This document shows, piece by piece, positions 3-63,610 of a DNA stretch of 64,000 bases. The DNA comes from Bilabrum cf. latius (lineage: Eukaryota), in NCBI GenBank assembly GCA_965178125.1, contig OZ237753.1, positions 558,001 through 622,000 of the forward strand, given 5' to 3'. Numbering within the stretch: position 1 is the stretch's first letter; every line of letters starts with the position of its first letter. Below the pieces are notes generated by a model, which did no database searches, was not told the origin of the DNA, and saw only the letters and a list, made by a program, of their open reading frames with translations. The translations under genes and the position numbers were made by a program.

Positions 3-3000
3 TCTCAGCTGCGGCTGGGCGTGAGTGGCGGAGACAGGACGGTGTCATCTGAGCTGGGCTTCAGTATGGGCGCTGGGGCGGGGCGAGGTGCCAGCACCGG
101 CGTGGATCCTGACTTCGATACTACTGGCACTGCGCTTGATCCTGGGTATGATGTGGGGAGATAGGTGCCCATTCAGGTGTACCAGTGGTCGTGCGTTGCC
201 ACGCCGAGTGGAGGCACGACATAGACGGCCTGTCCCGAGCTGGTGCCGGGCAATGGCTAGCCCACGACTGTGGCTTCGATTCAGGTGTCGACTGCGACGG
301 CTGCGTCGTTCGCAGGTCAGCGGCTGGTACTGTCGGTGAATGCATCATCAGGCTTGGTGACTCTGAACGAGACAGGCAGGCGAGAGCTGCACGCCACGAC
401 TCGCATGCTGCAATCACAGGCATTGGTATCATCTATCGATGCAACGACTCTGGTCACGAGCCAGACCAGCAGTCGGGTCACGGTGGCACTGCCGGGTCTG
501 CCCTCGGTCGAGGTGAACGCGTTACGGACGAGACTGACTCGGCTGTCGGCAGAAGGGGGCAACACGGTGGTATCGCCATCTGTGAGGACCGTGCTGGATG
601 CAGTGGTGAATGGCATTGCCCCTCAGGATGCGAGAATCTCCGTGCAGGAAGAGGGCCTGACCCTGCTGTGGACGCAAGTGAGCGGGCCTGAGATTCCGGG
701 GCTGCGACGGGTGAACTCGACTGTGGCAACTCCTGGCGGCAGTGCGATTCTGACGTCACCGACGGCCCGCAGCATGGTGCTGCGGGCGGGCGTGCTGCAG
801 GTGGGAGCCACGTACACGTTCCATGTGGAGTCCTCGCTGGCATCTGTGAGTGCCGAGCTGTTGGAATCTGGAGACGTGACCGTGTCCGCCGATATCACCC
901 TTGTTGTGAACACCCCACCGCGGCCGGGTCAGGTTGAGTTGAATGGCCTGGTGGGATCCAACCGGACCATCCCGCGCGCCTTGCTGGACACGGTGCGTGT
1001 ATCCACAGATGGATGGATCGATGCAACGGAAGACTTCCCGCTCGAGTTCTCCTTCTTTGTGGACACCCTGGGACTGGTGGGGTAGAGGGATGCTTCCACG
1101 GCTGTGGTGTCGCCTAGCGAGATCGCGTCCATCTTGTCTAGAGCTGGCGTGATTCCGCTGCGTGGCGCCGGGCTGGAGTCGCAGCTGTCCTCAGTGCTGC
1201 CTTCGGGTCCCACTGTCGCGGGACAGCCGCCTGTGAACATGACCATCATCGCCACTGCCAGGGACCCCTCAGGTGCGCTGGGCCTGGCTGCGACGCAGAT
1301 CCAGGTAGCCCCGGCGCTGGACGAGTCCGAGCTGAGGAACAGCAGCGTGGTGACGAGTGCAGCGACAGATCGGCTCAACGAGGCCATCAACAGCGCGGCA
1401 TCGAGCGACCCGGGCAAGGCGCTTGTGCTGGCCGGGGCATCTGCTGGGCTGCTGAACTCGCTGGACACGAATGACACGTCGGCACAAGAGGAGGCGTCTG
1501 GCATCCGGGATCAGGTGCTGGGGCTTGTGGCAACTGTGGCCGAGACTGTGGATGTCACGGGCGAGAACATGCAGCTGGCCGCAGAGACTGCATCCTCGGC
1601 GCTGTCCACTGCCAACGCCACGACCGAGCACCAGCTCGGATCAGCGCTGAACGCCACGGAGCTGCTGCTGACTCGCCGACTGCAGGAGGGCGACCCTGAT
1701 GAGCCCTTGGACGACGGGCCGGCAGGGTCGCTGCTGCAGTCGTTGCGCGTGGCGTCGAATGCGGGAGCATCGCTGGGCGGTGGTGAGGCAGTGACGGGCG
1801 GGGAGCGCATGTCAAACTCGTCAGGACTACTTGGTCAAGCAATGTTGCGTGGGTCGGTCCCAGGCGAGGAGCAGCGCGTGCTGACATCTGAGAGCGGGGA
1901 CGGCAGCGGGATCTCGCTTGAGATGGTGGCGGGCCGTCTGGACGTGCTCGGCCTGGACACCGCAAATGTGTCGGTGGTGGCGGGCGGGGCAGATGTGCTG
2001 GGCCTGGTGGCCATCGGCAATGGGTCGGCTGCGGACTTCCGCACGTTGGCACAGCGGTATTGCAACCGGGCTGCTGGTGCACTGGTGGGCGAGGCTGCAT
2101 CCGGTGGAAATGTATCCGACAACAGCAGTGCGGGGGTGACATTCGGCGTGGCACTGGTGGATCAGAGCGGCGGTGGGAGGCGGCGCATCTTGCAAGAGTC
2201 TGGCGAGGACCTGTTTGGCGGTGTGGATGCCACGGCCATGGAGTGGAAGACGGATGGCAGCGGGGTGCGGTCGCCGCATCCGACAGAGTAGGTGGATCTG
2301 CTGTCCACGCACGATGTGGGCGGGACGGATGAGAACGCCACTGTGGGCGCGGCACTGAACCAGACAGGCGCTGACCTAGTGGAGACGAACCGCACGTCGA
2401 TCTCCACGACCGAGTCAGTGGGCGGGGGGCTGGGATCCACAGTGTCGATCGACCTGAAGGCGGCTTCGTCGGGCGGGTCTGTCGGCTTCTCCTCCGATGC
2501 GCTTGAGGTGTGCGTGTTTGTGCCCAAGGCGCCTGCACCGCCTGTGCCTGATGCGCTGGTGGGCCAGGAGCTGCCTGTGGTGGCCCTGGATGGAGACACA
2601 GGCGGGGAGCAAGCGTTCCCTAACCCGCGCGTGGAGGAGTCGGCAATCAACCTGACGCTGCCGCAGTCGTGCAGCGAGCCGCTGCTCGAGAATCAGACAG
2701 AGCAGGTGTTTGAGGTGCAGCAGGGCCTGACAGCTGCCGCATGCATCTACTGGAATCCTGATGAAGCGGCATGGCGGTCGGACGGGTGTCAGGCAGTGGC
2801 TCTGCTGGAAGGAGGCACGGTGTGTCGATGCACGCACCTGACGGATTTTGCGTCTCGCGTGGAGCTGTTGCTGTAGTCGAACAAGGAGGTGTTTGCGGTG
2901 GGCTCGCGGCCCATCACGGCAGCCGATGTGCTGGCCAATCCTGAGACGTTCATCGCCATCGGGGCCATGAGTCTGGGCGTGATCATCGCGGCTGTGGGCA

Positions 3001-6000
3001 CGATCTGGATCGAGCAGCGAGACCGGATCCGGTTCTCTCGGCGCCTGGTGCGGGACCCCGAGATCGCTGTGGTGCGCGACATGGTGCGGCTGGAGGGCAC
3101 GGCGGAGCTGCTGGGGAGCAGCCTACGCAAGTGGGAGCGGGAGGTGCTGTCCACGACGGCCGAGCGGGGAGGCAAGCCGCTGAATAGGACCGATGAGCAC
3201 GCGGCAGATGCACAGTTGGACGAGGCACTGCGGTTCGGGAGCCAGGCCCTGGCTGCAATCAGCGGGTCAAGCGTTGCAGCCGAGCCTGATGCCGGCAGCA
3301 AGGGCCAGGACGGGAACGAGCTGAGCGGGCTGCGGCCCCGCGTGCAGCGCCAGATGCGTCGGAACAAGGTGTCGAAGAGAAGCATCCCGCTGTTCGAGCT
3401 GTTCATCCCGGGCACGCGCGCCTTCCTGGAGCAAGAGATCCTGGCTCGGGCCACGAACAAGGCCGAGGCACAAGCGAGGGACGGGTGGTGCTATTGCTGC
3501 TTCGAGTGGTGCTGCAGTGTGAAGGACCTGTAGGTCGAGAGTGAATACAAGAGTGACGATGATGGCAGCACGGCCTATGGCAATCTGTCTGTGGCCGGCG
3601 ACAGTCTGCAAGACATGTACAAGGGCGTGGTGGAGGAAGGCAAGGACAGTCCTGAAGGCAGCCTAGGCAACCACGCCCTGGTGTCTGCGCGTGGGAACAG
3701 GAGGAAGCGGGCCGGGTCAAGCAAGTCCGGGGCGGCGGTACGCAAGCCGCCGAGTAGCCGTATCCGCAGGAGCGGGTACTCGGCTGCAGAGCTGTCTGCG
3801 ATGAGTCCGTGCTACCGCGCTTGGGTGCTGCGGTGTGACTTGCTGTCCCTATGGTGCGCCCGGCTGCCGTACGAGCACATCCTGCTTGCCGCTTTCTTCC
3901 GCTTCAACTATCAGCAGGACCGTATCATGCGGCTGGGCCAGCTGCTGGCTGTGATCTTCATCGGGATGTTTGCCACGGCGTTCTTCTACAGCATCACGGG
4001 GGCGGACTACTCCGGCATTGACGAGGACTGTGACGGCGAGGATGACTTTGCGCCCCTGGCTCTGTGGGAGCAAGCAGTGTTTGCGGTGGCTGCATCGCTG
4101 CTGCAGCTGCCAGCTGGGATCCTGTTGACTGTGCTGTTTGGGATGTCCGGCGATGCATGTTTCTTGTGGCGGTACTTTCCGATTTGGCGCGAGCTGTAGC
4201 TGCGGTCTGTGGCTGAGGTGCACCTGGGCTCCAAGGTGGGCGACTTGAGGAGGAAGCTGCAGGTGCTGCAGACGTCTCTGGCGAACTGGCTGGAGACCAC
4301 AGAGGAGGCGGTGGGCAGCGATGACTTCGATCAGCTGCGCACGGTGGGAGAGCTGCTGGGCGACGAGAACACGGAGAAGCTGATTGACGATGTGATGGAA
4401 GGCAGACTGGCAAGGGGCAGCAAGCGGCTGGCAGCGGCTACCACATTCACGCTGGATGGCAAGCAGGCCGATCTAGTGGCAGACTCGCCAAGACGTGATG
4501 GCTCTAACATTGCAATGGCAGCATTGCATGATACAAAGCGAGTGACGGCCTTGCGTTCTCGCCGCACTGCCACCCGGTTGAAGCTGATCCGCGCCCTCCG
4601 CGACTATGGTGACTTCTTGGTGTAGGCGAGCCGGAGCGAGCTGGGGTGCATAGGGTACATCTGGTCCTGCAGATGCGCCGAGTTGCCGTGTTGCATCAGC
4701 GAGGCCCGTACACTTGCCCAGGCCGAGCATGAGAGACTGGTAGCTGAGTTGACTGCTGAGCTGGCCATCAGCAAGACGCAGGGCGCCAAGGACGACCTGA
4801 AGACTGCACGGGCGCTGGGACGGCGGGCGCTGCGGGAGGTGGCAGATGCATCCAGTCAGCCCAATGTGTTCTGGTTCCTGCCTGTGGAGGTGCTGCCTGA
4901 CATCTTCAACCCGGTGTCGCTGGGGTGGAAGAAGGCGCCGCGCACGTGCCAGATGTGCTGCCCGTGCATGGTGTGGTGCATGAACCGCTTGCCGGCGCAA
5001 AAGCCCTTGTTCCTGATCCAGCAGATGGCGGCTGATGGCCGTCCGTATGGGTGCTGCCACACTCGTCGGGACATGCGATCTGACCCCACGCTGCAATGGG
5101 TGGATCTGATGCGAGCCGATGCGGAAGCGAATGAATTGCCGTGGGAAAGGAAGCAGAGAGAGCGAGAGAATGCCAGCAGCTCAGGGGGCAGCTAGGGCAC
5201 TGGCGTCGATGGCTTCGACCCTGTTGCCCCGATGCCAGGGAATGATGATCGTCGCTCTGATGGCATGTCTGCAGATTCGGTGCCTGTGGATGTGCCGATG
5301 GTCCGGGCGAATAGAGCCATTCGGAAGGCTGTGCAGAACACGCGATACTGCGTGTGGTGCGACTGCTGCGAGTGCGGGCCCTTGGACTCGCTGCGGTGCG
5401 TGTGCTCTGTGGAGCGGCCAGCACTGCGCGGCACTGTCGACGTCCAGCGCGAGCAGCGTGGCTCGAAGGTGGATGAGCTGACAACGCAGCTGCAGACTGC
5501 AGATGGGCAGCGATCTCTATTGGTTGGAGCTAGCAGTGTGGGATCAGGGGCTTCCGATCCTTTGCATCAGCGCATGGCAGCGATCTACGAGCGACACGAG
5601 GAGGATGCGCTCACAGCTGCGGAGTCTAAGATCTATGGTCCAGAAGTAGCGCTTTCTCGGCAGCAGTCTCGACAGACGATGCACTCTACACTGGAGCGAA
5701 AGTCCTCGATCGGAGCAATGAGCATCGACTGGGAAGAGGATGAAGATTCCGAGATCTTACGCCAAGAGCAGCAACGTGAGCAGGAAGAGCGATCCATGGA
5801 TGCTAGGCTGCGATAGACCGTCGATGGGTATGACGATCTGCCCGAAGCCGATAAGGCAGACTACAGATCAGCACTGGGCATCGTACTGTCGGGATTCCGA
5901 GGCAGCACAAAAATGACGCTGAGACGAAGACACAGAAGCGACCCAGGCAGTATTACAAACGATCCGACTGATGGCGTGGCTGACGATCCTACAATTGCAA

Positions 6001-7151
6001 AGTCTTCGAGTCTGTAGCAACTCCTCAGCGAAACTCTGGGCGACGAGGGGATGCGGGCCGCAGTGCGGGGCACCTTGCTGCAGGAGGACGGCGCATGCTC
6101 TGCGGCTTTCATGTACTCGGCAATCTCCTTCGTGCTGCTGGCCGCACTGCTGTCGTTCGTGCTGTGGTTCATCCTGGCGTTCGGGCTGACTCGGGGGCGG
6201 GCCGTGATCAGCGAGTTTATGGTGACGTTCTGGACCTCCCAGGCCATCACGTTTCTGGTGACGCAGCCGCTGGTGGTGTTCGCGGCAATCGCGTGGGCCA
6301 CTACGTTTGGGCCAGTGATGGGCAAGCAGTGCTCGTGGATGCCGCTGTGCGGTGCGAGCGACGAGGCGCAGGAGTTCTCTGGGTCTCGCGTGCTGTCGGG
6401 GCGCGTGGAGAATGTGGCCATGCTGCACGCGGTTGGGGCCACGGCGGGACTGGCTGCACGCGACAGCTTGCTGGTGTTCTCGCTGACATCGGCTCTGTCG
6501 ACCGCATTCGCGCAGGAGTTCGACAAGGGCGCAGGTGCTGCGAGGGGCTCCGGGCCAGACGGCTATGACGGTCCTGATGACGATGCCGAGGGGGAGGCGG
6601 TGGATCAGCTGGTCGTGGCCGCGATGTCTGGGGGACAAGGCTAGTCAGCTGAGCAGGATAAGGTGGATGGAGCGAAGAAGCGGAGGAAGGCAGCAGAGAA
6701 GCGGCAGCAGGCTGCATTCTACCGGATGGAGAGCAGACTGCACGACACGCTGACTCGCGAGTTTGCCCGGTTCCGCTTCCAGGCAGCGGTGGAGCAGATC
6801 CGACGAGTGGCACGTCGCGTGATGGAGCTGGGCAAGCAGGCCGAGGAAGCTCAGAGGCTGCAGGGCCATGCAAATGGCGAGTTAGTGCACGTGGGCGGCA
6901 AGGCCCCTGCAGACGGCGGTCCTGACCGCGTGGCTGGGTTTGGGGATGCAGTCCCACAGGAGCCTGAGCCAGCTGAGGGTGGCTTGCTGAGCGTGGCTGG
7001 ATTGGACCGAGACCGCAGGATCAAGCGGCTTCGGAAAGTTGCATCAAGGGGCCGGCGGGCTGCACGGCTGCTTGAGCTGGTCAAAGCGGCGGTGCAGAAG
7101 CAGAAGTAGCGGCTGCGGAAAGAGGTCAGGGGAGCCGTGGATGGAATTTAA
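3..7151 (+). CDS. Gene A: polycystin-1-like (REJ-GPS-multi-TM) receptor, 5'-partial, TAG read as Gln
   Basis: ORF-track pieces 270, 1104, 2292, 2889, 3591, 4209, 4683, 5232, 6051 and 6663 share one frame. They are separated only by 14 TAGs (162, 222, 258, 1083, 2289, 2874, 3531, 4197, 4623, 5193, 5814, 6015, 6642, 7107), with no TAA/TGA until TAA 7149-7151. REJ-like motifs: VVNTPPRPG, DGWIDATEDFPLEFSF. Canonical GPS: CIYWNPDEAAWRSDGC...CRCTHLTDFAS. Hydrophobic TM segments near 2950, 3940-4150 and 6110-6310. Confidence 0.88.
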
Positions 7152-7306: not shown

Positions 7307-10300
7307 TCACAGTCCGTCCATCGCGCCTCGGACTTCTTGACGTAGCCGCTACCTCTGCTCATCTACAGCAGCTTTGACCAGCTCAAGCAGCCGTGCAGCC
7401 CGCCGGCCCCTTGATGCAACCTTCCGAAGCCGCTTGATCCTGCGGTCTCGGTCCAATCCAGCCACGCTCAGCAAGCCACCCTCAGCTGGCTCAGGCTCCT
7501 GTGGGACTGCATCCCCAAACCCAGCCACGCGGTCAGGACCGCCGTATGCAGGGACCTTGTCGCCCACGTGCACTAGCTCGCCATTTGCATGGCCCTGCAG
7601 CCTCTGAGCTTCCTCGGCCTGCTTGCCCAGCTCCATCACGCGACGTGCCACTCGTCGGATCTGCTCCACCGCTGCCTGGAAGCGGAACCGGGCAAACTCG
7701 CGAGTCAGCGTGTCGTGCAGTCTGCTCTCCATCCGGTAGAATGCAGCCTGCTGCCGCTTCTCTGCTGCCTTCCTCCGCTTCTTCGCTCCATCCACCTTAT
7801 CCTGCTCAGCTGACTAGCCTTGTCCCCCAGACGTCGCGGCCACGACCAGCTGATCCACCGCCTCCCCCTCGGCATCGTCATCAGGACCGTCCTAGCCGTC
7901 TGGCCCGGAGCCCCTCGCAGCACCTGCGCCCTTGTCGAACTCCTGCGCGAATGCGGTCGACAGAGCCGATGTCAGCGAAAACACCAGCAAGCTGTCGCGT
8001 GCAGCCAGTCCCGCCGTGGCCCCAACCGCGTGCAGCATGGCCACATTCTCCACGCGCCCCGACAGCACGCGAGACCCAGAGAACTCCTGCGCCTCGTCGC
8101 TCGCACCGCACAGCGGCATCCACGAGCACTGCTTGCCCATCACTGGCCCAAACGTAGTGGCCCACGCGATTGCCGCGAACACCACCAGCGGCTGCGTCAC
8201 CAGAAACGTGATGGCCTGGGAGGTCCAGAACGTCACCATAAACTCGCTGATCACGGCCCGCCCCCGAGTCAGCCCGAACGCCAGGATGAACCACAGCACG
8301 AACGACAGCAGTGCGGCCAGCAGCACGAAGGAGATTGCCGAGTACATGAAAGCCGCAGAGCATGCGCCGTCCTCCTGCAGCAAGGTGCCCCGCACTGCGG
8401 CCCGCATCCCCTCGTCGCCCAGAGTTTCGCTGAGGAGTTGCTACAGACTCGAAGACTTTGCAATTGTAGGATCGTCAGCCACGCCATCAGTCGGATCGTT
8501 TGTAATACTGCCTGGGTCGCTTCTGTGTCTTCGTCTCAGCGTCATTTTTGTGCTGCCTCGGAATCCCGACAGTACGATGCCCAGTGCTGATCTGTAGTCT
8601 GCCTTATCGGCTTCGGGCAGATCGTCATACCCATCGACGGTCTATCGCAGCCTAGCATCCATGGATCGCTCTTCCTGCTCACGTTGCTGCTCTTGGCGTA
8701 AGATCTCGGAATCTTCATCCTCTTCCCAGTCGATGCTCATTGCTCCGATCGAGGACTTTCGCTCCAGTGTAGAGTGCATCGTCTGTCGAGACTGCTGCCG
8801 AGAAAGCGCTACTTCTGGACCATAGATCTTAGACTCCGCAGCTGTGAGCGCATCCTCCTCGTGCCGCTCGTAGATCGCTGCCATGCGCTGATGCAAAGGA
8901 TCGGAAGCCCCTGATCCCACACTGCTAGCTCCAACCAATAGAGATCGCTGCCCATCTGCGGTCTGCAGCTGCGTTGTCAGCTCATCCACCTTCGAGCCAC
9001 GCTGCTCGCGCTGGACGTCGACAGTGCCGCGCAGTGCTGGCCGCTCCACAGAGCACACGCACCGCAGCGAGTCCAAGGGCCCGCACTCGCAGCAGTCGCA
9101 CCACACGCAGTATCGCGTGTTCTGCACAGCCTTCCGAATGGCTCCATTCGCCCGGACCATCGGCACATCCACAGGCACCGAATCTGCAGACATGCCATCA
9201 GAGCGAAGATCATCGTTGCCTGGCATCGGAGCAACAGGGTCAAAGCCATCGACGCCAGTGCCCTAGCTGCCCCCTGAGCTGCTGGCATTCTCTCGCTCTC
9301 TCTGCTTCCTTTCCCACGGCAATTCATTCGCTTCCGCATCGGCTCGCATCAGATCCACCCATTGCAGCGTGGGGTCAGATCGCATGTCCCGACGAGTGTG
9401 GCAGCACCCATACGGACGGCCATCAGCCGCCATCTGCTGGATTAGAAACAAGGGCTTTTGCGCCGGCAAGCGGTTCATGCACCACACCATGCACGGGCAG
9501 CACATCTGGCACGTGCGCGGCGCCTTCTTCCACCCCAGCGACACCGGGTTAAAGACGTCAGGCAGCACCTCCACAGGCAAGAACCAGAACACATTGGGCT
9601 GACTGGATGCATCTGCCACCTCACGCAGCGCCCGCCGTCCCAGCGCCCGTGCAGATTTCAGGTCGTCCTTGGCGCCCTGCGTCTTGCTGATGGCCAGCTC
9701 AGCAGTCAACTCAGCTACCAGTCTCTCATGCTCGGCCTGGGCAAGTGTACGGGCCTCGCTAATGCAACACGGCAGCTCGGCGCATCTGCAGGACCAGATG
9801 TACCCTATGCACCCCAGCTCGCTCCGGCTCGCCTACACCAAGAAGTCACCATAGTCGCGGAGGGCGCGGATCAGCTTCAACCGGGTGGCAGTGCGGCGAG
9901 AACGCAAGGCCGTCACTCGCTTTGTATCATGCAATGCTGCCATTGCAATGTTAGAGCCATCACGTCTTGGCGAGTCTGCCACTAGATCGGCCTGCTTGCC
10001 ATCCAGCGTGAATGTGGTAGCCGCTGCCAGCCGCTTGCTGCCCCTTGCCAGTCTGCCTTCCATCACATCGTCAATCAGCTTCTCCGTGTTCTCGTCGCCC
10101 AGCAGCTCTCCCACCGTGCGCAGCTGATCGAAGTCATCGCTGCCCACCGCCTCCTCTGTGGTCTCCAGCCAGTTCGCCAGAGACGTCTGCAGCACCTGCA
10201 GCTTCCTCCTCAAGTCGCCCACCTTGGAGCCCAGGTGCACCTCAGCCACAGACCGCAGCTACAGCTCGCGCCAAATCGGAAAGTACCGCCACAAGAAACA

Positions 10301-44374: not shown

Positions 44375-45177
44375 CCTGGCTAGAAGAAGCGAAGAATGCG
44401 ACTAGCGGACTGCACGAAATGCTGCGAAATGGGACATTCAACAGCAGCTTAATTGTTAAGCAGATCTTCTGTATATCCCGAACTAGCTGCGTCAACGAAT
44501 CCCTGCGTTGGAGGCTGGAATGGCGGCTAATAACACTGCGTGGCAGCAATAACGGATTGCACTCTACTCAGTCTCTACGAGTGCGACAGCACCGTATGTA
44601 CATCATTATATCAATGTATCGGCAAATTTGGAATTCATTTGCAATTCGTTCCGCAAGAGGGTAGCAATTACGTATTTCTGGTCGACTTCCACCGAAATCA
44701 GCATCGGTCCTACAGCACGCATTTGCCAAGATATCACGACGAAAATGCCCCAATCAACTTGTATAGTATATAATCCTACCATTTTTTGCATGGAAGCCCT
44801 AGAAATATCAGCCAATAGGGAGCAAACTAAATCCAAGCGACGCGCGGGTTAAACGATATTGGCGCCTGCAACTGGCGTTTTGAAAGATCTCACACCCTGG
44901 AACAATTTTTGAATACACTATACACAATCTAGCTGTCTGAAACCCAACTTCAACTGGAGGATCAGTTCAAATTAGCCTCGATTCGGACCCCGCCTGGCTG
45001 GCAACAATTGGTCGCAACAGCCCCATTCAGGCTCCGGGTCAACTTGAAGTTCATCAATGCACGCCCGGCAACAGCGTCCCAAAACATACCTAGGTGATTC
45101 CAAATGTGAGCTTGCGCCATTGCAAGAATCTGTATCGGCCTAACAGCCTCAGCTCGCCCATGAAAGCCCGATTGGAC

Positions 45178-53166: not shown

Positions 53167-53198
<32 letters not shown>

Positions 53199-54273
53199 TC
53201 TGTCCCAGCTCGTCCTGCGGCCCATGCCGAAAATACACGCTCCCGTTCCACTGGCTACCCGCCTGCGCCGCCCCTGCCCCTGCCCCTGTCGGCATCTCGT
53301 TCCCACCAGCCGAGCCAAGAGTGCCGGCACCAAGGAAGGAGGTGCTCTCGATACCAAGGCTGCCCGTTGAATTGTCTCCGGCATCGAGAGCACCTCCTGC
53401 TCGTAGGCTGCTCGCCAGGCTGTCCTCGCCTGTCGCTGCCAAGGAAGGGTGCTGCTGCAGTCCTTCCGCAAACTGGGGCTCCCCTGCTCGCTTGCGAGCG
53501 TACTCGCCCTGAGCAGTTGCTCGCAGGTCGACGAGCAGACTAGGGGTGGCGTCAAACCCGGCGAGGCGTGCTCGGTCCTTGGCCTGCAGCGCCTGGCGCG
53601 AGGCTCCCATCATCCTGGTGGGCGGCCGCCTCGCAAGTTCGGGCGTGGATGGCCTGCCGAACACAAGGAGGTTGGCACGAGACATCGAGGCGTCTGCTGC
53701 GCCTACTGAGTGGCCGTGTCGAGCTTGCTTCTCCATGCTTCGCTGGCCTGCTTGCGTCACAGCCGCCTGGGCTCTCTAGCCTAGTGATGGAAGCGGTCGT
53801 GGGTGCACCGCTTCGACTCTGTACAGCCTCGCCCCGCCGGGTCCTTTGCGGACGTGTGGCTGTCCGTTGGCGCCCGGCAGCACAATTCCCTACCGCCACC
53901 TGAACTGGGATCCGTACTCTCCAGAAAGGAAGTAAATTCGTTCACCCTCAGTAAATATTGTACGCAACGACATTCTGCGGTTCGATGCAAGCTCCTATGG
54001 CTGTACTGGAGCAGATTCGCCCGGGTGTGAAACACCTCGCAAAACCATCGTAGCGTGCTCTTGCTGCGGAGTCAAGTCCACGAGCTGCCGTGCTACCCGA
54101 TTTAAAGCTTCAGACGAATCGAATCCACTTTCATTGGGGTTGCACTCTTTGGATTCATTTGCTGCAGTGCCATCGGTTGACGCATCAGCCAAGCTATCTT
54201 CCTTTAGTCTTTGCCGACGCAGTGCGTCATTGAGCGATTCGCTAAGGTCAATGTGCTAGATCCTACGTTTCAT
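45178..54273 (-). CDS. Gene D: large (~3,030 aa) mostly low-complexity protein with an IQ motif and a C-terminal PTP/DSP-fold pseudophosphatase domain, TAG read as Gln
   Basis: Pieces 53995, 53062, 51871, 50899, 50014, 49201, 48685, 48271, 47857, 47461, 46603 and 45178 share one frame, joined by TAGs, ending at TGA 45178-80. The most upstream in-frame ATG is 54273. IQ motif CMRIQRAWRAYW near 52095-52130; polyQ near 53170-53200. Phosphatase-fold motifs: SFWLMRPHLQIGPAP, GITTFVCL, HFLQFPIEYG, GEKIYLFSGTGRGRAALV. Confidence 0.75.
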
Positions 54274-54570
54274 GTGAGCTCGTACACAGTATCATACATG
54301 GCTTGCAGATTGGAAAGAGCGTCATTCCGTCTTGTGCGGATGGATGTGACGAATCGGGCTGCAACAGTGTGCAAATATGTTAAGGCTAGCCTCCCCAAAA
54401 CGTGCGGTGCCTTGCAAGGCAGTATGTGTAGCCTGAATGAACAGGGCCTATCTTCAACGATGGAGGCGCTGTCGCCAGTGAAACTGTTGGAGGCGCAGCT
54501 CGCCACCCAGAAGAGAAGCGGCCTACTGAGCAGCCAAAGGTTCTGTGCTAAACTACCTGTTGCTTGCATA

Positions 54571-55088
54571 TCACTTCAAATTCAAGAGCTTGAGCGCCAT
54601 CTGCTTCTGTCCACCCCGCAGCTCTCTATCAGGCCCCATTGAGTTCACCAGCTTGCGGCCCTTGTGATACATGTTATGTCTTCTGTTCTGAGCAGCATGA
54701 ATCACGCGGCCCTTCGCTGTGACTGTATACCGCTTGGCAGCAGATCTGTTTGTCTTTCCTGACTGCGAATGAAACACGGTCGTGAGCTATTGCGTAGAAA
54801 TAAGTAGTGGCCGACAGGAACCCTTCGCAGTCTACCTGGCACAGTGCTTCTTACCTTGACGCCCCTGGTAATCCCTTTGATCACAGGTCTAACTCTTCGA
54901 AGGGTTCGGAGAATATCAACCCGCTTTCTTGGGAAATACTCCCTGCGAGAAGAGGAGGGACGCAAGGATGACAAGAGTGTTCCCAAAATGGGCGCCTACA
55001 GGTACACTTGACGGACATCAACCGGCAAGGCTCACGATACACCCTACAATACCCGCATGGTGGGATGGATTATTTTCGATGCCATCAT
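54571..55088 (-). CDS. MRPL35: Nuclear-encoded mitochondrial ribosomal protein bL35; 3 exons (55088-55036, 54942-54855, 54762-54571)
   Basis: KTNRSAAKRYTVTAKGRV...RRHNMYHKGRK matches the bL35 signature. Two phase-compatible introns: GTGAG...TCGCAG (93 nt) and GTAAG...TCGCAG (92 nt). The basic N-terminal extension resembles a targeting peptide and contains one TAG. Stop is TGA. Exon 1 is the least certain part. Confidence 0.8.
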
Positions 55089-56123
55089 GAAGAGCAGATG
55101 AAAGGATACAAGCGTGCTTTTGTGACAAATCGGATCAGTTGCAAATAATAACGCTACAATCCGGTTTTGCGAGGCCACGCAAGAGAGTACCAAGTGAGAC
55201 GATTCTCGTCGGCAATGAGCAAATATGACTTAATGGCAAGCAATGCAAGTGCGGTCGCTTGGTATGCGCCAACGAATGATCCACAGGAAAGCGTTTCGAA
55301 CGCATACATACAGCCCACCAGATCTAGCGACTGTACTCTCCTCTCTCCGACCAGAAGACACAGCCATTGAAATGACAACGTACTTGTCGCGCGACCCGTG
55401 CGGCTTGGCTGCGCGACGCTGGAATGATCCTACCATACACCCTGCCTCAGGCTGGCTAGCAGGAATCCAGCGGACTCCCCCGCACCCGAGTCTGCCCCGC
55501 AATTGCCCCTCACGAGTTGCCTAACCCCAAGTCACAGCAGTCGTTTCGTTCCTGGTGGGGCAGAGGGGGCTCGCACCAACGGTAAAGGAGACTGAACATC
55601 TCGATCGAGTTCGCAGGTTGGAAAAATGCGAATCTTGCGGGTCCTCGTAAGCTACGTACCACTGGCATGGCGATCCGCTGCCAGTGACTGATCGTTTAGC
55701 CGGCTGCATCAGAAGGCCTGATGATCACATGCGGCACTGATCAGAGTACATGGGCACTGCTCACCTGATAGGAGTTTGTGCATGGCAGACCTACTATGTT
55801 TCTGTATGCGGACTATTCATTTTGCATTTCCGGTGGCTGGAGTCAGCACTCGTCATCATGATGTGCTGGGTTGGCAACGGCACCGTGACGAGACCCAATG
55901 AAGGTGTACTGCGATTGGTAGCACCTTCCTTCGCAACATGTTTGTCTTTATGCAAGTGAATTTTGTAGTAGCATCAATTCAGGGGACACGTTCTGTCACC
56001 GGCACAGGTTGGTTGTACGGCGATCAAGCACTGGCTGAGCACCACCCTTTCAAAAGACGCGCGTGTTTAGCATGACCTGCACGCCACGACCTGCACGCCA
56101 AAGGCGGTGCGATCGAGCCGCTC

Positions 56124-56560
56124 TCATTCATCCCTGCGCACCATGTATGCAGCGCCCACCGCGGCTGCAATCGCCGCTACCACGGATGTCGTGGCTGCAG
56201 CGAGGGCCCCCGCCGGGCAATTACCCACGCGGGTCGCCTTGATCCCGCCGAACATGATGGTGCCGTCTTTGGTGGGGCACAGGGGACTCGTGCCAGAGAT
56301 GAAGTTGGACTGCACGTACCAGTCGGTGACGTTCATCGTGGTGTTCTGTACCTTGGCGACCCCGACGCACATGCGGTCCCCCACGGTGCCGCAGTAGACC
56401 GAGTTGCCAGTGCACGTGATAGGAGCCTGGTATGTGACGAAGGTGGGGTTGGTGCTCCGGTCGGGATCGGCAGTAGCCGTGGCGGTCGCCTTGAGAGTGC
56501 CCAGCCGGAGGTTGTTCTGAACGTTTGTCACCTCAATGCGCATCTTTTCGGGACAGGTGC
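56124..56560 (-). CDS. Last exon of a small Cys-containing surface protein with a hydrophobic C-terminus (TM or GPI signal)
   Basis: GC3-rich ORF ending ...AAATTSVVAAIAAAVGAAYMVRRDE then TGA. A polypyrimidine/TTCGCAG acceptor just upstream implies earlier exons, which I could not resolve. Confidence 0.6.
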
Positions 56561-57281
56561 TGCGAAACGCAAATGAACAAGAAGGAAGCTGTGCACTTGT
56601 TGGTTGTTATCTATGATGCAGCTTCGGCGAGCACTGCCTGCCAGCGGGCAACATGCGACAGCGGCCTCCGCTGTCTGGTCGCACGTTGTGGCCCCGAAAA
56701 CAAGTGACCAATCCATGCAAAGTCCGGCATCCAGACACTATTGGTGCCCATGGCGTGTATTATTTTTATGACGCGCGTGCACTTACTCGACTGTGTACTC
56801 AGTTTCGCCGCTTCCGGACCCGATAGTGTAGCGGTAGCGCCACGCGAACGATTGCGCCGATCCGGAAGATGCGAGGAGAGCTGCGATTGCACCTGCGAAA
56901 GAATGGCATATTCATTTCACGTGTTTGTGAAGCTTGCACATAGAATGGCGAGGTTAACACACGTGGACACAGCCTTTGGCAGCCGACGCGAACTGCCCGA
57001 TTATTGAATACAAACCGGCGGTGAGCACTGGCAGGCACCGCACTAGCGCGGCAATTCAACTTGAAGCAGCTACTTACTGAGACCCAACACGAACATGCTT
57101 CTATTTCTTGGCGATTTGATGTGGGTTACACGGCTGCACGGTGGCACGGTCTACCCCGCAAGAGCCATCCCTCGCATGTTTGGGGTCATGCAATTTCGTC
57201 CCCAAATTTCCCCTGGTGCGATTGGAGTCACGGCGGGGACCACCTGGGATCACGGCGAGCCACAAACAGTCTTCCTGTGCC

Positions 57282-59471
57282 ATGCCAAGGAGAAGAGGGA
57301 GAGGTAAACGAGGCAGCAAGAAAAATAGTAAAGGTGTTGCTTCGGGTGGAGCAGCGGTGGCCGCAAAGCCAGCAGAGACAGACAGCGTGCAGCCCGACCC
57401 TGCACACGCGATCGAACAATCGAGGACCGCCACAGATAGCCTGAAGGACACACCTCGAGCTGCATTGATGCCAACACCAGAATCTTCCCCATCATCGCTG
57501 GGTATTAATGCCGGAGCTGCTCCTGGCAGTGCTTCAACTGGTTCGTAGCAGCCTGAGTTGCCGTTAGGATCTCACAGCAACGGAGGCCAAGTTGCGGGAC
57601 ACGGCCAGCGCGACCGCAGTGATGTTGCCACGAATTCTATGCGCACTAAGACTGCCGTAGTGCGGCACCGCCGCCCAGCTGCGGCGTCTCCTGCAACTGG
57701 GTATGAGCCAAGCGAGGAGAGCGGCATGGATACTCCAGCAGATGTGGGAGACCGAAGGCGCGCACAGGGTGATTCGAGCGGGCCAGCCGGAAGCCATCGT
57801 GCCGGTTTTACCAACGCAGCAAACGGCCCTAGCATTGATATTCTGCGACCAGCCAGCGCCCGGTTTCCTGGCATTTGGGGCAAGCGTGCGGCTGTGACCG
57901 GCGCTGCCACCATCAAGGAAGACGTAGACGCCGAGCAGCCGCCGCCGGAATACAAATTATCCGCCGCGACGCAGCCTGAGTCGTCTGCAGGAGGCCAGCA
58001 TGCTCGCTCTGGGCACCCGTAGCTCGGATCGAGGAGTGCTTCCCCGAGGCAGTCGTCACAGCAGCCGAGCAGCCGAGCAGGCGCTCGTGCAGGAGCAGGA
58101 GCAGGATCCTAGGACCCCTCGGGGGCAGAGCAGGCAGGCATACCCACAGGGGTCGCCGCCTCCGCGCCCGTCCCCGCTGTTGACGCGGGAGAGACGACAG
58201 CGGATGACGGGGCGTATGCTGACGACGAGGGCAAGGGCAGGCAGGGGCAGAGGCAGTCCCGCACCGGAAACGATCGGAGCGGCGGCTCCGCTAAGGCGAG
58301 GCACAAGCACCACCACCGGGGGAATGAGGCCGCCCTCCAGCAAGCCCTGCAGTCGCAGCAGTCCAAGATGCAGAGGACCAGCAGCACAGGTACCGCGGTT
58401 GCAACCACCTCCGAGGACGAGGAGGCGGGCAGTAGCGGTAGCGGCGGCGGGCGCACAACAGGGGCAGGGGTGGGGGCTGGTCCTGCCGTCGCACCTGCGA
58501 GCCGACGGAGCCCCGACCTCACCGAGGACCTGAATTCACCCGCGTCTGTCCGACCGTCACCGCCGGCCAGCAGGACCGGCAGGGGTAGCACGAGGCAAAC
58601 AAGTTCTCCCACGAAACGACCGATCACCCTGCAGCTGTCCCCCACGGCGCGCCTGCCGCCGCTCTCGCCCACACAGTCGCCATCGGCCGCAGCCGCCGCC
58701 GCTGCGGCCGCCGCTGCCTCGGGTGGCGGCAACGGCCAGGATGCCTCGAACTCTTGGTTCTATGACGCGGAGGAGAGCGCGGACCAGGTGCTAGGCCGCG
58801 CAGGGGGCGAGCGCGTAGCATCGAGGGAGGCGAGGGAGAGGGAACACAGGGAAGCACTTGCTAGGGCAGAGGGCGAACGAGCACGTGCCGCGGGGGAGGC
58901 GTCGGAAGCCGAGGAGGTGGAGGACGAGGACGAGGACGAGGATGCGGGGTAGGACGGCAGCGGTGGCGGTGGTGCTGGGGGAGGGGAGGAGGAGGACGAG
59001 GACGACGACGAGGATGCGGGGTAGGACGGCAGCGGGGGCGGTGGTGCTGGGGGAGGGGAGGAGGAGGACGAGTACGAGGGGGATAGCTTCGACGACGACG
59101 ATGATGACGATGACGAGCAAGGGGGGCAGCTGCAGCCGCAGCAGGGTGCCAACGCGAGTGCCATCCGGGCGGCGATCCGGGACGGCGGAGGCCCGGTGCC
59201 TCGCATGCAGGCGGCCCCTGCCCTCCCTCGCGCGCTCGAGCCACACCACGTGCAGCGGATCCGATTTGGGCTGGGCCTGCAGCTGTGCCACCGGCTGAGG
59301 CGCTCCGGGGAGCTATCGGATGCGGAAGCCAGGCGGCTGAAGAGGATGGTGCTGTCTAGGCACAGGTTCGTGTGGGCGGCTCTGGAGGCCTTTGAGAAAT
59401 CGAGGGACGTGGAGGACACGGTCGACACGATGAAGCAGGTGCTGGCTCTGGAGGTCGTGTCTTCTGGCTAA
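57282..59471 (+). CDS. Gene G: ~729-aa low-complexity protein with basic N-terminus, acidic tract and small C-terminal helical domain, TAG read as Gln
   Basis: Pieces 57141, 57558, 58368 and 59196 share one frame, joined by 5 TAGs, ending at TAA 59469-71. ATG 57282 gives MPRRRGRGKRGSKKNSKG (NLS-like). C-terminus: LSDAEARRLKRMVLSRHRFVWAALEAFEKSRDVEDTVDTMKQVL. Confidence 0.7.
58911..59066 (+). repeat. 72-bp coding tandem duplication in gene G (acidic/Gly-rich unit)
   Basis: gaggatgcggggtaggacggcagcgg.ggcggtggtgctgggggaggggaggaggaggacgag occurs twice; in-frame TAGs at 58950 and 59022. Confidence 0.9.
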
Positions 59472-59634
59472 GCACTGGACTGGACTGGTCGCGCGTGTAA
59501 CGACAGACACGGCCTTGGTACAATCGGCGCATGGCTTGGCGGAACCGGAACACGCAGCCGCACTTGCCGCACAAACACATGGCCATGTATGGAGCATCAC
59601 AAGCAACTTCCTAAATTAAACTTCAACGTAGTCA

Positions 59635-61707
59635 ATGAAGGGAATGCCTATTTATGACACTGTCATTGCTGCAGCGCTATTGTTGCCGGTGCTCTCTGCA
59701 GCGGATCTTGTCATTCGCGTGCACCAGCGGACCAACCAAGGCTGCGCGTACAAATCGCTTATGAGCCAGGTACTGGAGGGTGCGAAACCGATCCATACGT
59801 GCAATCTCTGGGATGCGACCGACTGGCTCCTGCGATCCGGCGAAGCAGCATCTCTGCTGCAGCTCGGGCGCCTCGAGAGAACGGAACGCGTCATCGTGCA
59901 ACTCAACCAGGGTCGGCATTTTCTGGACGGAAAGCCTTGGACAATTCAAACCGACCGGAGCGCACTTCGAGCAGGCGGGTGGCAAGGCAGTCTTCACGTA
60001 CAGGGCCACGCCGAAGCGCCAGAGTCGGCCAGGAACTGGGATCCGGCGAGCGATGGGTACTACTTCGCTGCCAGCGGTGCCCGCGTCGTCGCACCCCCTG
60101 CGAATGGAAGCACTGTATCTGCAGGCCTACCTGTCACAAGTTGGTCTCCCGAGCCGAGCTATCCCGGCATCTGGAGCGCTCCACTCCCGGCCCCGCTTGC
60201 GTTCGCTCGGCAGCTCTATGTGAACGGCCGGAGGGCCCAGCGGGTGTCCCGCAACGCAAGCTGGGCCTTTGGCGACATGACATTTCGTGGATGGAACGAA
60301 GGCTACTATTCTCCGAACGCCTCGCTCGTCGCGCTCGCGAATTAGGGAGACATCGAGCTGACGATCACCAAGAAGGAGGCGTGGTACGTGGCTCGCTGCG
60401 TGGTCGCCAACATCACTCGGGATGGCGACTCAGGAGGGTCCAACATCAACATGCGGCTGCCCTGCTTCCGCGGTGCCATCCAGAGGACAAACCCGGTGAA
60501 CAATGCCTCGCACACGATCGAGAACGTGAGGGAGTGGCTGCTGCCTCCGTCCTCCCCCTCACGAGACGACAGCGGCCCGGAGGCGCCCGAGGGCAGCTTT
60601 TACGTGGACAGGTCGGAAGGGAAGGTGTACTACAAGGCGAGGGCCATCGACGGAGACATGACCCGCGCCGAGGCATTTGTTCCCTAGATGGAGCACGCCC
60701 TCGTCATCGACGCATCCAGCGACGTGGTGATCAGCTCGGTCGCGTTCGAGCACGCCGCGTGGGACCAGGTCAACTCGGATGGGAACGGGTACGTGCCGGT
60801 GCAGGCGGGGTTCTACCCGTTCTGGAGCCACCAGAGCCCCATCAAGTCCATGGTGCACATCAACGCGTCAACGAACGTTCGCCTGGAGAACTGCACGGTG
60901 AGGCACGGGGGAGGGTCGGGCGTGTGGGTGGCCGGGGGCTCGCACGACGTGGCGATCGAGGGCACCGCCGTGGCAGACATGAGCGGCGGCGGGATCTACC
61001 TGGGCGACGTGCACGTGTGGGAGCCAGACACGCCCGTCGAGCAGCAGGACCGGGGCCTGCAGGTGCATCGCACTGCGGTGGCGCAGGTGGGCGTGGAGTA
61101 CTGGGGCGGCGTCGGCATCTTCGGGGGGTACTTGGCCGACTCTGTTCTCTCGAGCAGCACCGTGACGAATGCGTCGTATTCCGCGGTCAGCCTGGGCTGG
61201 GGGTGGTCGGGCCACGCCTCCACCGGCACGTGGGCAAGGAACAACACGGTGACCCGCTGCCACCTCGATCGATACCTGGGCACCACCGTGGACGGCGGGG
61301 GGGTGTACCACCTGGGCCCCACCCCGGGGACATCGATCACCAGGAACCTGTTCACGAGGCAGATGCAGACAGGGGACGGGCACGGCGGTGCCCTGTATCT
61401 GGACGACGGCTCCGCGTGGACGACGTGGACGAGCAACGTGGTGGCCAACCTGACCCAGCCCCAGGGCTCCAGGTGGCTGTTTGCCTGGACGGACCGGGAC
61501 ATCGGTGACGTTGCCGCGGGCAACTGGGTGGACAATCCCGTGTACGGAGTGCTCTGGAGAGTCTCCAACGGCACGCTGGCCAACAACACGGTGGTGGACA
61601 CGGGCAAGGGGGAACAGTGGCCGGCGGAGGCCATGGAGGTCATCCAGGAAGCGGGGGCACCGGCCGAGGTGCTGGCGCGAGCGCACGCCAGCGTGTTTGG
61701 GTTCTGA
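59635..61707 (+). CDS. Secreted right-handed parallel beta-helix protein, GH141-like glycoside hydrolase (~690 aa), TAG read as Gln
   Basis: Pieces 59635, 60388 and 60688 are in one frame, joined by TAGs 60343 and 60685, ending at TGA 61705-07. Signal peptide. Motifs RQLYVNGRRAQR, IENVREWL...GSFYVDRSEGKVYY, SYSAVSLGWGW, DGGGVYHLG and ALYLDDGS. Confidence 0.75.
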
Positions 61708-62055
61708 AATTCGAAAGGAAGCGGTTTAGGCAATTGAGGTGTGTTGCAATGACACGAGTTTCTGACTCAGCAGGATGCCTCACCTAGACTCAATGCATTA
61801 CTGCGCCTCGGTCGAGGGCGCCCCGTTGTCGTGAAGCAGTCGCCAGTGGTGTGCGACCGCGAAGATGGTGGACTATGTCGCATCCAAACCGTTGACACTC
61901 ATCTCGATAAGTATTGTGTTCTAGTTGAGATTACGTGTTTGCCTGCGCGTGACAAATGATGCGTGCACTTGCGAATACCAGATAAATTTACGCGTGATAG
62001 GTCGCCAAGATGGCCGCCACAAAAGCCACTCGTGCCAAACAGAATTACGGACCAA

Positions 62056-63610
62056 ATGGCAGCCGTGTTCGTGCCACTGCTTGACAATGAAACTCGTGCC
62101 CCGGATGCCATTGCAGGCAAGACTGTCTCGTCTGTGGGCGGTACCAAAGGCTCTGGAGCGCCTCTTGTGCTCGTGACGGGCGCGACGGGCTTTCTCGGTA
62201 GCTGGATCGTGCAAACGCTGCTGCATTCGGGATACTGTGTTCGAGGCACGGCCCGTTCGCTAAAAGATGAGAAGGTTGGATTTCTACGCGCACTTCCCTT
62301 TGCGTCGGAACGGCTGGAACTCGTGACCGCAGATCTGCTTGACGGCGCATCTGTCTGGGACCTGATCGTTCGCGGCGCGGACTTCGTTCTTCACGTCGCC
62401 AGCCCATTCTTCCTCGGCGATGACGAAGACAAGTGAGCAAATGCTTTGAATTCTGAAGCAATCTACGAGTTTGTGGAGCCGAGGGACATCGTACCAGGCA
62501 AAAAGCACGACACTTGCACTTGCTCGAGAATCGACGTTGTGCCGGTCGTAACCAACAAAATGAATTCTCCGCGAGGTTGCGACCGCGGGAGTATCGCCGA
62601 GATCCCGCACCGGTTTCAGCTTCTTTCCATTGGCGTGCACGCGTGCAAAAAAAAATCAAACGCAAACGAAACGCTAACTTGTAGCTAGTATCTGCCCTTC
62701 TCGCAGGTTGATCAAGCCAGCAGTGAACGGCACGAGGTCCGTGCTGCTCGCCGCCAGGAAGGCACGCTCGGTCAAGCGGGTGGTGCTGACTGCGTCCACG
62801 GCAACGGTCATGTACGGGCACGGCGACCTCAACGCCAAGCGGTGGGGCCCGGGAGACTTCTCTGACCCCGACGGTCCGGACATCGACGTGTACGCGAAAT
62901 CCAAAACGCTGGCCGAGCGAGAGGCCTGGGCCATTGCTCGGGGGGACCAAGGCGAGCACGCCGCGCTGGGCGGGCCTGCCCCCTACACACTCACGACCAT
63001 GCACCCCGGCTTCATCACGGGCCCCGTCCTCGCCAAGCAGGGCACGTTCCAGTCCATGCAGGTGATGCAGCGCATCATGAGCGGCGCGTCGCTGATCCAC
63101 GCGGGCTTCAACTCGATCGATGTGCGGGACGCGGCACTGGCTCACGTGCTCGCTCTTACGGCACCAAAGGCGCCGGGAAAGCGCCTGATCCTCTCCCACA
63201 GCGCCGTGCCCATCGCCGCCATCCAGGACAGGCTGTCTAGGCGATTCAACCCGTTCGGATTCAACGTGTCCACGAGCCAGATCTCCACCTGGGTGCTCGT
63301 GCTCGCCTCGTGCGTCTCGAGGGAGGCGGCTCGGGCGGCGGCCAGGGCAGGTAAGTACCCGCAGCTGGACGCGAGCGAGACCCTGGATATTCTCGGCATG
63401 CGGTTCAGCGACCAGTTGAGCTCCTACGAGGACATGGCCCTGGCTGCCATCGCGCACGGGTACATCGACGATCCGTCCGAGGGCGGGGCGCTGTCCGGGC
63501 CGGTGGCTGGGCTGGCCGTGCCGTTCGTGCCTCCGTTGGCGCGCGGGCGGCTGCCGACAGAGGCTGCGGCGGGCGGGGCTGCGTCTCAATCCGCGGCGCA
63601 CTCCATTTGA
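62056..63610 (+). CDS. NAD(P)-dependent extended SDR (aldehyde reductase / dihydroflavonol-reductase-like); exons 62056-62432 and 62707-63610
   Basis: VLVTGATGFLGSWIV Rossmann motif, HVASP and YAKSK catalytic YxxxK. Intron 62433-62706 (GTGAG...GCTAAC...TCGCAG) splices to give DDEDK-LIKPAVNGT. Stop is TGA. Confidence 0.92.

What the first reader, a model, noticed from the sequence alone, without database searches (positions are those of the whole stretch)
3..63610. Non-standard nuclear genetic code: TAG is a sense codon while TAA and TGA remain stops
Seen: frames of 7.1, 17.6, 17.6 and 9.1 kb are interrupted only by TAG, roughly 100 times across the window, and never by TAA/TGA. All ten inferred ORFs end in TAA (7149, 26532, 59469) or TGA (7307, 26804, 45178, 54571, 56124, 61705, 63608). 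After the TAG at 7107/7349 the two paralogs stay conserved as protein (RLRKEVRGAVDGI vs RLRQEVRGAMDGL) despite many synonymous changes, and they end at mirror-positioned TAA and TGA. Spliceosomal introns show this is a eukaryotic nucleus. Established: nuclear UAA and UAG normally change meaning together; UAG-only reassignment is rare (e.g. the fornicate Iotanema spirale and some phyllopharyngean ciliates). Inference: this GC-rich, intron-poor protist may be an independent case, needing a tRNA-Gln(CUA) and an eRF1 that ignores UAG but reads UAA.
Basis: partly seen in the sequence, partly recalled or inferred. Interest (0 to 1): 0.95.

Follow-up and report, generated by a model that had tools for sequence, protein, structure and literature searches.

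The report
TAG read as glutamine in a protist
In this GC-rich piece of a eukaryotic nuclear genome the stop codon TAG is used as an ordinary codon, most likely for glutamine, while TAA and TGA still end genes; this is a rare kind of genetic-code change.

Summary
Four giant reading frames (7.1, 17.8, 17.6 and 9.1 kb; 17,238 codons) hold 108 in-frame TAG and no in-frame TAA or TGA. The other two frames of the same DNA hold 284 TAG, 96 TAA and 847 TGA. The frames are real genes with FG-GAP, REJ and GPS domains, and two paralogs show purifying selection. Conservation of coding type runs 13 codons past a shared TAG and stops exactly at TAA in one copy and TGA in the other.

TAG most likely means glutamine. 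At four TAG sites in a conserved FG-GAP column, 64-86 of 150 outside homologs carry Q. A small Codetta-like test gives Q +14.9 bits against E -0.2.

Contigs from three RNA-like runs carry GT..AG splice joints that the DNA run lacks. They keep all 23 TAG of gene D unchanged.

TAA is not a sense codon: 0 were seen where about 39 would be expected. The code therefore matches NCBI table 15.

The organism could not be named. It has an organellar bL35 gene, so it is not the fornicate Iotanema. tRNA-Gln(CUA) and eRF1 could not be examined because no genome is held.

The parts
3..7151 (+). Gene A, cut by the window start. It is a 98% identical copy of the C-terminal 2382 aa of B. It has 14 in-frame TAG and ends in TAA at 7149.
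7307..25135 (-). Gene B, a giant FG-GAP / REJ / GPS membrane protein (frame of 5942 aa). It has 30 in-frame TAG and ends in TGA at 7307. The likely start with a signal peptide lies near residue 74 of the frame.
7107..7109 (+). TAG shared with B (7349..7351, minus strand), 13 codons before the stop. Coding-type conservation continues past it up to TAA in A and TGA in B.
26804..44437 (-). Gene C, a giant FG-GAP (15 or more repeats) / REJ membrane protein with a GPS-like motif (5877 aa). It has 41 in-frame TAG and ends in TGA at 26804.
37427..40072 (-). Stretch of C holding the four TAG codons (40070-72, 38723-25, 38306-08, 37427-29) that sit in the conserved column of the FG-GAP unit (..TVKxx[TAG]KIS..). 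There, 64-86 of 150 outside homologs have Q.
45178..54291 (-). Gene D (3037 aa frame; weak DSP-phosphatase match below the Pfam cut-off). It has 23 in-frame TAG and ends in TGA at 45178. All 23 TAG lie unchanged in contigs of run X5, which span 44932..54290.
54541..55064 (-). Nuclear gene for organellar ribosomal protein bL35 (Pfam Ribosomal_L35p, E 8e-10). Intron 54763..54854 is spliced out in runs X5, X8 and X9. The gene ends in TGA at 54571.
55950..57140 (-). Small gene H2 of no known family. Introns 56560..56786 and 56893..57077 (GTAAGT..CGCAG) are spliced out in X5, X8 and X9. It ends in TGA at 56124.
57120..59471 (+). Frame E, a low-complexity acidic protein of no family. It has 5 in-frame TAG, two of them inside a 72-nt tandem repeat, and ends in TAA at 59469.
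59644..61707 (+). Gene F, a right-handed beta-helix protein. It has 2 TAG after the first ATG (3 in the whole frame). Both lie upstream of the Beta_helix domain and inside the stretch that aligns to outside homologs. It ends in TGA at 61705.
61960..63610 (+). SDR / NAD-dependent epimerase-like gene in two exons. The inferred intron is 62433..62706 (GTGAGC..TCGCAG); no spliced contig was seen for it. There is no TAG in exon 2, and the gene ends in TGA at 63608.

Best explanation
This is nuclear DNA of a GC-rich (about 60%), gene-dense, intron-poor eukaryote. In its genetic code UAG has been reassigned from stop to glutamine, while UAA and UGA remain the stop codons. The result equals NCBI table 15. 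Shown here: TAG stands inside real, selected, transcribed coding sequence; it is neither spliced out nor edited in the majority RNA form; it aligns with Gln in homologs; TAA and TGA are fully excluded from the frames. Inferred from established knowledge of other reassigned codes (passages of PMC5304391): UAG is read by a cognate tRNA-Gln with anticodon CUA, which pairs with UAG but not UAA, and the eRF1 has lost or weakened UAG recognition while keeping UAA and UGA.
For: 1. Counts: 108 in-frame TAG against 0 TAA and 0 TGA in 17,238 codons. The two other frames hold 284, 96 and 847.
2. Real genes: FG-GAP E 1e-77 and 1e-117, REJ, GPS, Beta_helix. Conserved domains lie downstream of many TAG.
3. 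Selection: A versus B shows 134 differences in 7149 nt, 83 of them at codon position 3, with 84 synonymous and 45 replacement codon changes. Thirteen TAG are shared, one is TAG/CAG and one is TAG/TAT.
4. In the older, diverged tails a shared TAG is followed by 13 codons with 7 synonymous and 3 conservative changes. Then come TAA and TGA at the same position, then no similarity.
5. Amino acid, inside the window: opposite TAG in repeat alignments, Q fills 22 of 114 cells, 5.6 times the background.
6. Amino acid, outside homologs: against the 150 best of 45,353 HMMER hits, four TAG sites have Q in 79, 74, 86 and 64 of 150 hits, and the next residue reaches at most 14.
7. Summed log-odds over 21 TAG columns: Q +14.9, E -0.2, A -6.9 bits. 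The same procedure names the right residue for 12 of 14 control codons.
8. RNA: runs X5, X8 and X9 (two studies) carry joints 54762>54855, 56559>56787 and 56890>57076 with CT..AC ends, which the DNA run X1 lacks. No 'other letters' rows were listed. X5 contigs are collinear over D and hold 23 of its 23 TAG; the listed pieces of X8 and X9 hold 4 and 3.
9. TAA is not sense: with CAA:CAG at 171:473, about 39 TAA would be expected beside 108 TAG, and 0 were seen.
Against: 1. One well-conserved column speaks against Q. At C residue 1245, 121 of 143 homologs have D and 21 have N. That repeat's Ca-binding motif is otherwise degenerate.
2. Most other TAG columns are variable and uninformative, including both in gene F.
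3. Two control codons, CAA and AGC, were miscalled by my test, so its power is moderate.
4. Run X5 is flagged 'RNA? (probably DNA)'. It holds spliced contigs, but the contigs over gene D might be DNA-derived. Contigs also drop rare variants, so partial editing cannot be excluded.
5. Whether TAG ever terminates a gene cannot be judged from ten genes read with TAG as sense.
6. No tRNA gene lies in the window, and no genome is held. The tRNA and eRF1 steps are therefore pure inference.
Confidence: 0.88

Rival explanations
1. Ambiguous, context-dependent UAG. The codon would be read as Gln inside genes but would still terminate translation near the mRNA 3' end in some genes, as in Condylostoma, karyorelict ciliates, or UAA in Blastocrithidia.
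For: The window cannot exclude it. ORF ends were defined with TAG as sense, so a TAG terminator would be hidden. In gene C the last TAG lies only 38 codons before the TGA, and nothing tests that tail.
Against: The TAG 13 codons before the end of A and B is clearly read through, because coding-type conservation continues to TAA/TGA. bL35, H2, the SDR gene and F end at TGA with no TAG nearby.
Confidence: 0.06
2. TAG is a sense codon for an amino acid other than glutamine, for example Glu, Leu or Ser as in other lineages, or Asp/Asn as one column suggests.
For: C residue 1245 aligns with D/N in 142 of 143 homologs. Glu is the runner-up in the log-odds test. UAG=Leu and UAG=Ser codes exist (passages of PMC11687900).
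Against: Q leads by 15 bits. Four independent conserved columns have Q as the clear majority, and L, S and E do not lead at any conserved column. Sister repeats inside the same proteins carry CAG or CAA at those columns.
Confidence: 0.04
3. The TAG are not translated as such. Either they are removed by splicing, or edited in the RNA (for example U-to-C giving CAG), or they are systematic base-call or assembly errors.
For: None was found. The only support is that the RNA nature of the contigs over gene D is not proven.
Against: Contigs from four runs of three studies agree with the window letter for letter: no 'other letters', no gaps, and no joints at TAG sites. Real introns are visibly spliced in the same runs. 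Thirteen TAG are shared by two diverged paralogs. Removing 108 in-frame triplets by splicing is not a known process.
Confidence: 0.01
4. Both UAA and UAG are reassigned to Gln (the common table 6 type), and TAA is merely rare because the genome is GC-rich.
For: GC is about 0.6, so TAA is the rarest of the three triplets in the window (188 against 421 TAG).
Against: There are 0 in-frame TAA against 96 in the two other frames. About 39 would be expected from the CAA:CAG ratio, giving a chance of about 2e-20. A TAA in A sits exactly where B has TGA, and conservation ends there.
Confidence: 0.01

Closest known systems
NCBI translation table 15 type code (UAG=Gln; UAA and UGA stop), as reported for the fornicate Iotanema spirale, the ciliate Protocruzia tuzeti and two phyllopharyngean ciliate lineages (passages of PMC11687900 and PMC5304391)
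   Same: The same codon is reassigned to the same amino acid, and UAA and UGA are kept as stops. Translating with table 15 reproduces the frames.
   Different: The host differs. It has an organellar bL35 gene, and by established knowledge metamonads such as Iotanema have no organelle translation. It is about 60% GC and has at least 64 kb of multi-gene chromosome with 92-274 nt introns. By recalled knowledge this does not fit AT-rich ciliates with gene-sized chromosomes; that point is an inference, not tested here.
UAR=Gln codes (table 6: many ciliates, Dasycladales and other ulvophytes, Hexamita, Streblomastix, Amoeboaphelidium protococcarum)
   Same: A stop codon of the UAR pair is read as glutamine, probably by a mutated tRNA-Gln.
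   Different: Here UAA is not reassigned: 0 in-frame TAA against about 39 expected.
Other UAG-only nuclear codes: the uncultured rhizarian exLh (Leu), some phyllopharyngeans (Leu) and Scotinosphaera (Ser) (passages of PMC11687900)
   Same: UAG and UAA are uncoupled, and only UAG is a sense codon.
   Different: The amino acid differs. Leu and Ser do not lead at any conserved TAG column.
Phage code 15 (crAss-like and other phages, TAG=Gln; abstract of PMC9523058 seen in the listing)
   Same: The codon table is formally the same.
   Different: This window is eukaryotic nuclear DNA with spliceosomal introns, not a phage.

Membership tests
UAG=Gln-only nuclear code (table 15 type) | In-frame UAG inside conserved, selected coding sequence | tested here: met
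   There are 108 TAG in 17,238 codons of four Pfam-supported genes. Paralogs show 84 synonymous and 45 replacement changes.
UAG=Gln-only nuclear code (table 15 type) | UAG aligns with glutamine in homologs | tested here: met
   Q +14.9 bits over 21 columns against E -0.2. Four conserved columns have Q in 64-86 of 150 homologs. One column (D/N) disagrees.
UAG=Gln-only nuclear code (table 15 type) | UAA is not a sense codon | tested here: met
   0 in-frame TAA against 96 off-frame and about 39 expected. TAA and TGA are interchanged at the end of A and B.
UAG=Gln-only nuclear code (table 15 type) | UGA is not a sense codon | tested here: met
   0 in-frame TGA against 847 in the two other frames.
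UAG=Gln-only nuclear code (table 15 type) | UAG present in the mature mRNA (not spliced out or edited) | tested here: met
   X5 contigs hold 23 of 23 TAG of D unchanged, and the same runs show spliced introns elsewhere. Caveat: these are contigs, and their RNA origin over D is not proven.
UAG=Gln-only nuclear code (table 15 type) | UAG is never used as a terminator | tested here: inconclusive
   Only about ten genes are available. One TAG 13 codons from a gene end is read through. A genome-wide test is impossible because no genome is held.
UAG=Gln-only nuclear code (table 15 type) | A tRNA-Gln gene with anticodon CUA | not testable with these tools
   No tRNA gene in the window, no Rfam match, no genome held.
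UAG=Gln-only nuclear code (table 15 type) | eRF1 N-domain altered so that UAG is not recognised | not testable with these tools
   The eRF1 gene is not in the window and no genome is held.
UAR=Gln code (table 6 type) | Both UAA and UAG are sense codons | tested here: not met
   0 in-frame TAA.
Context-dependent stop/sense codes (Condylostoma type) | The same codon is sense internally and a stop close to the 3' end | tested here: inconclusive
   The read-through 13 codons before the stop in A and B argues against it, but the sample is too small.

The most novel reading that the evidence does not exclude
This is an independent, so far unreported UAG-to-Gln-only reassignment in a GC-rich, mitochondrion- or plastid-bearing, non-ciliate and non-metamonad protist lineage that is barely sampled in public protein sets. 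The nearest named relatives of its genes are at most 43% identical. In a 60% GC genome UAG is not expected to become rare, so its capture would argue for an ambiguous-intermediate route rather than the codon-disappearance route. It would also give a genome-scale, possibly culturable system with a UAG-blind, UAA-reading eRF1.
Probability: 0.45. Interest if true: 0.8.

Novelty: new member of a known kind. Interest (0 to 1): 0.65.

Why it matters
Nuclear codes in which UAG and UAA have different meanings are few. The passages I read name Iotanema, Protocruzia, some phyllopharyngean ciliates, one rhizarian and Scotinosphaera.

A further case in a GC-rich, intron-poor protist with long contigs would add an independent data point on three questions:
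- How UAG is uncoupled from UAA.
- What eRF1 changes allow UAA and UGA to be read without UAG.
- Whether GC pressure helps or hinders stop-codon capture.

There is also a practical consequence. Any annotation of this genome with the standard code breaks its genes at every TAG. Here that is roughly one break per 160 codons, so the 5,900-aa proteins fall into 30-40 fragments.

Tried and rejected
- **Whole genome:** not held. Codetta on the assembly, a tRNA-Gln(CUA) search, eRF1 inspection and 18S placement could therefore not be done.
- **Naming the organism failed.**
  - Gene F has only 6 homologs, at most 30% identical.
  - The REJ/GPS/TM part of C has no homolog among proteins of 3232-10285 aa.
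  - Exon 2 of the SDR gene has one unnamed 96% match from Logan; the next best is 37% over 84% of the query, and the highest identity among the rest is 43%. The named hits (a nematode, a lichen fungus, a bacterium, plants) give no consistent placement.
  - The Atlas search with the SDR exon gave only generic epimerase clusters.
  - One scan of metagenome contigs with the C-terminal 838 aa of D found no relative.
  - None of the 150 FG-GAP hits shares the tails of B or C. One of them is named as a Planctomycetaceae MAG protein.
- **No RNA holder listed** by the look-up of sequencing runs. Three runs guessed as RNA were laid instead.
- **Neighbour test:** TAG next to Q codons in 8 of 94 cases against 64 of 546 for Q itself. 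This was uninformative.
- **TAG columns in F:** variable, hence uninformative.
- **Rfam:** no match in the window.
- **Literature:** six full-text searches found no report of UAG=Gln-only in a GC-rich non-ciliate other than the cases listed. Supplements were not seen, and subscription journals are not covered.
- **Pfam** failed on size or frame and were corrected.
Full report
**1. Observation**

Under the standard code the longest frame in the window is 1052 aa. With TAG read as a sense codon, four frames open:
- A, 3..7151 (+): 2382 aa, cut by the window start, 14 TAG.
- B, 7307..25135 (-): 5942 aa, 30 TAG.
- C, 26804..44437 (-): 5877 aa, 41 TAG.
- D, 45178..54291 (-): 3037 aa, 23 TAG.

Together these 17,238 codons hold 108 TAG, 0 TAA and 0 TGA in frame. 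The two other frames of the same DNA hold 284 TAG, 96 TAA and 847 TGA. So TAG occurs in frame at about three quarters of its off-frame rate, while TAA and TGA are completely excluded. That statement is circular, however, because it follows from reading TAG as sense.

**2. The frames are real, selected genes**

- B and C match FG-GAP (E 1e-77 and 1e-117), REJ and, for B, GPS. These domains are followed by transmembrane regions.
- F (59644..61707 +) is a beta-helix protein. Its domain lies downstream of its TAG codons. Its six outside homologs align on both sides of these TAG.
- A is a tail-to-tail inverted copy of the last 2382 codons of B. The two differ at 134 of 7149 nt, 83 of them at codon position 3, giving 84 synonymous and 45 replacement codon differences. 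Thirteen TAG are shared, one is TAG/CAG and one is TAG/TAT.
- The near-identity ends about 60 nt before the stops. In that older, diverged tail a shared TAG (7107 and 7349) is followed by 13 codons with 7 synonymous differences (including AGG/CGA) and 3 conservative replacements. Then TAA stands in A and TGA at the same position in B, and after that no similarity remains.
- This shows translation through a TAG that lies only 13 codons from the end, and termination at TAA or TGA.

**3. Eukaryotic, nuclear, transcribed; TAG kept in RNA**

The only listed holders are coded runs. I laid four of them on 44001..64000.
- Runs X5, X8 and X9 (two studies, guessed to be RNA) carry joints 54762>54855, 56559>56787 and 56890>57076 with CT..AC ends. 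The DNA-like run X1 lacks them.
- On the minus strand these are GTAAG..CGCAG introns of 92, 227 and 185 nt.
- No 'other letters', gaps or joints at TAG sites were listed for any run.
- X5 contigs cover gene D collinearly from 44932 to 54290 and contain all 23 of its TAG. The listed pieces of X8 and X9 contain 4 and 3.
- Caveats: these are contigs, X5 is flagged as possibly DNA, and rare edited forms would be dropped.
- One spliced gene (exon 54574..54762) is a bacterial-type ribosomal protein L35 (Pfam E 8e-10). It is a nucleus-encoded organellar ribosomal protein, so the organism has an organelle with its own translation.

**4. Which amino acid**

- Within B and C, alignments between sister repeats put Q opposite TAG in 22 of 114 cells, 5.6 times the background. 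S is at 1.2 times. Contexts such as TVKGH[TAG]KISATQGG beside HQKISATQGG in sister units illustrate this.
- A full HMMER search with C residues 1240-2439 gave 45,353 hits. I used the best 150.
- Re-aligned with X at TAG, four sites in the conserved column (C residues 1456, 1905, 2044, 2337) have Q in 79, 74, 86 and 64 of 150 hits. No other residue exceeds 14.
- One site disagrees. At residue 1245, 121 of 143 hits have D and 21 have N, in a repeat whose Ca-binding motif is otherwise degenerate. The remaining six sites are variable.
- Summed log-odds over all 21 usable TAG columns of B and C give Q +14.9, E -0.2 and A -6.9 bits. With each codon masked in turn, the same procedure recovers the right residue for 12 of 14 control codons; CAA and AGC failed.
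- TAG would then make up about 14% of glutamine codons.

**5. TAA and TGA**

If TAA were also Gln, the CAA:CAG ratio (171:473) predicts about 39 TAA beside 108 TAG. None is seen. TGA is the commonest off-frame triplet and is absent in frame. The code therefore equals NCBI table 15, which reads the A tail as expected.

**6. Mechanism (inferred)**

Passages of PMC5304391 state two things. A tRNA with anticodon CUA reads UAG but not UAA. A UUA anticodon would read both, which explains why UAG-only reassignment is feasible. By analogy I infer a tRNA-Gln(CUA) and an eRF1 with lost UAG recognition. Neither could be examined: there is no tRNA gene and no Rfam match in the window, and no genome is held.

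**7. Comparison and novelty**

- Passages of PMC11687900 list the known UAG-only nuclear codes: Iotanema spirale, Protocruzia tuzeti and two phyllopharyngean lineages (Gln); a rhizarian and some phyllopharyngeans (Leu); Scotinosphaera (Ser).
- The present organism is not Iotanema, because it has an organellar ribosomal protein.
- Its 60% GC, its multi-gene contig of at least 64 kb and its 92-274 nt introns do not look ciliate-like. This rests on recalled knowledge and was not tested.
- I could not name the organism. Its genes have no close named relatives.
- Six literature searches found no matching report.
- I therefore file it as a new member of a known kind of code. It may be an independent origin, but the genome's producers may already know of it.

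**8. Open points**

- Whether UAG is ever a terminator.
- The identity of the organism.
- The tRNA and eRF1.
- The gene status of ORF 25287..26534.
- The 5' end of the bL35 gene.

Noticed in passing
window 3..7151 (+) and 7307..14455 (-): Tail-to-tail inverted duplication of at least 7.1 kb at 98% identity. Near-identity stops about 60 nt before the two stop codons, where much older divergence begins. This could be a gene-conversion tract between paralogs or an assembly fold-back.
   Followed up: partly
window 54943..55058 (-): In the bL35 gene the only upstream ATG (55056..55058) is separated from the L35 domain by an in-frame TGA. Removing a further 93-nt intron, 54943..55035 (GTGAGC..TCGCAG), would join them. 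The X5 contig keeps that stretch. With it removed, codon 5 would be a TAG.
   Followed up: partly
window 54763..54854, 56560..56786, 56893..57077, 62433..62706: All introns seen or inferred end in the same TCGCAG and begin with GTAAG or GTGAGC. This is an unusually uniform 3' splice-site motif for so few introns.
   Followed up: no
window 63703..64000: A 39-nt tandem repeat, 7.6 copies at 96% matches, runs off the window end downstream of the SDR gene.
   Followed up: no
window 58913..59077 (+) and 15084..15293 (-): Coding tandem repeats. A 72-nt unit in frame E carries a TAG in each copy (..EDAG[TAG]DGSGGGG..). A 36-nt unit in B encodes DDPINGPGGPGL repeats.
   Followed up: no
window 37121..40720 (-): The regular ~70-aa FG-GAP units of gene C are 50-62% identical to FG-GAP proteins in the public set, one of them named as a Planctomycetaceae MAG protein. 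None of the 150 best hits shares the REJ/GPS/TM tail.
   Followed up: partly
window 25287..26534 (+): A 415-aa frame with 4 TAG between genes B and C. It has no Pfam match and is overlapped by an antisense frame of similar length, so it is unclear whether it is a gene.
   Followed up: no
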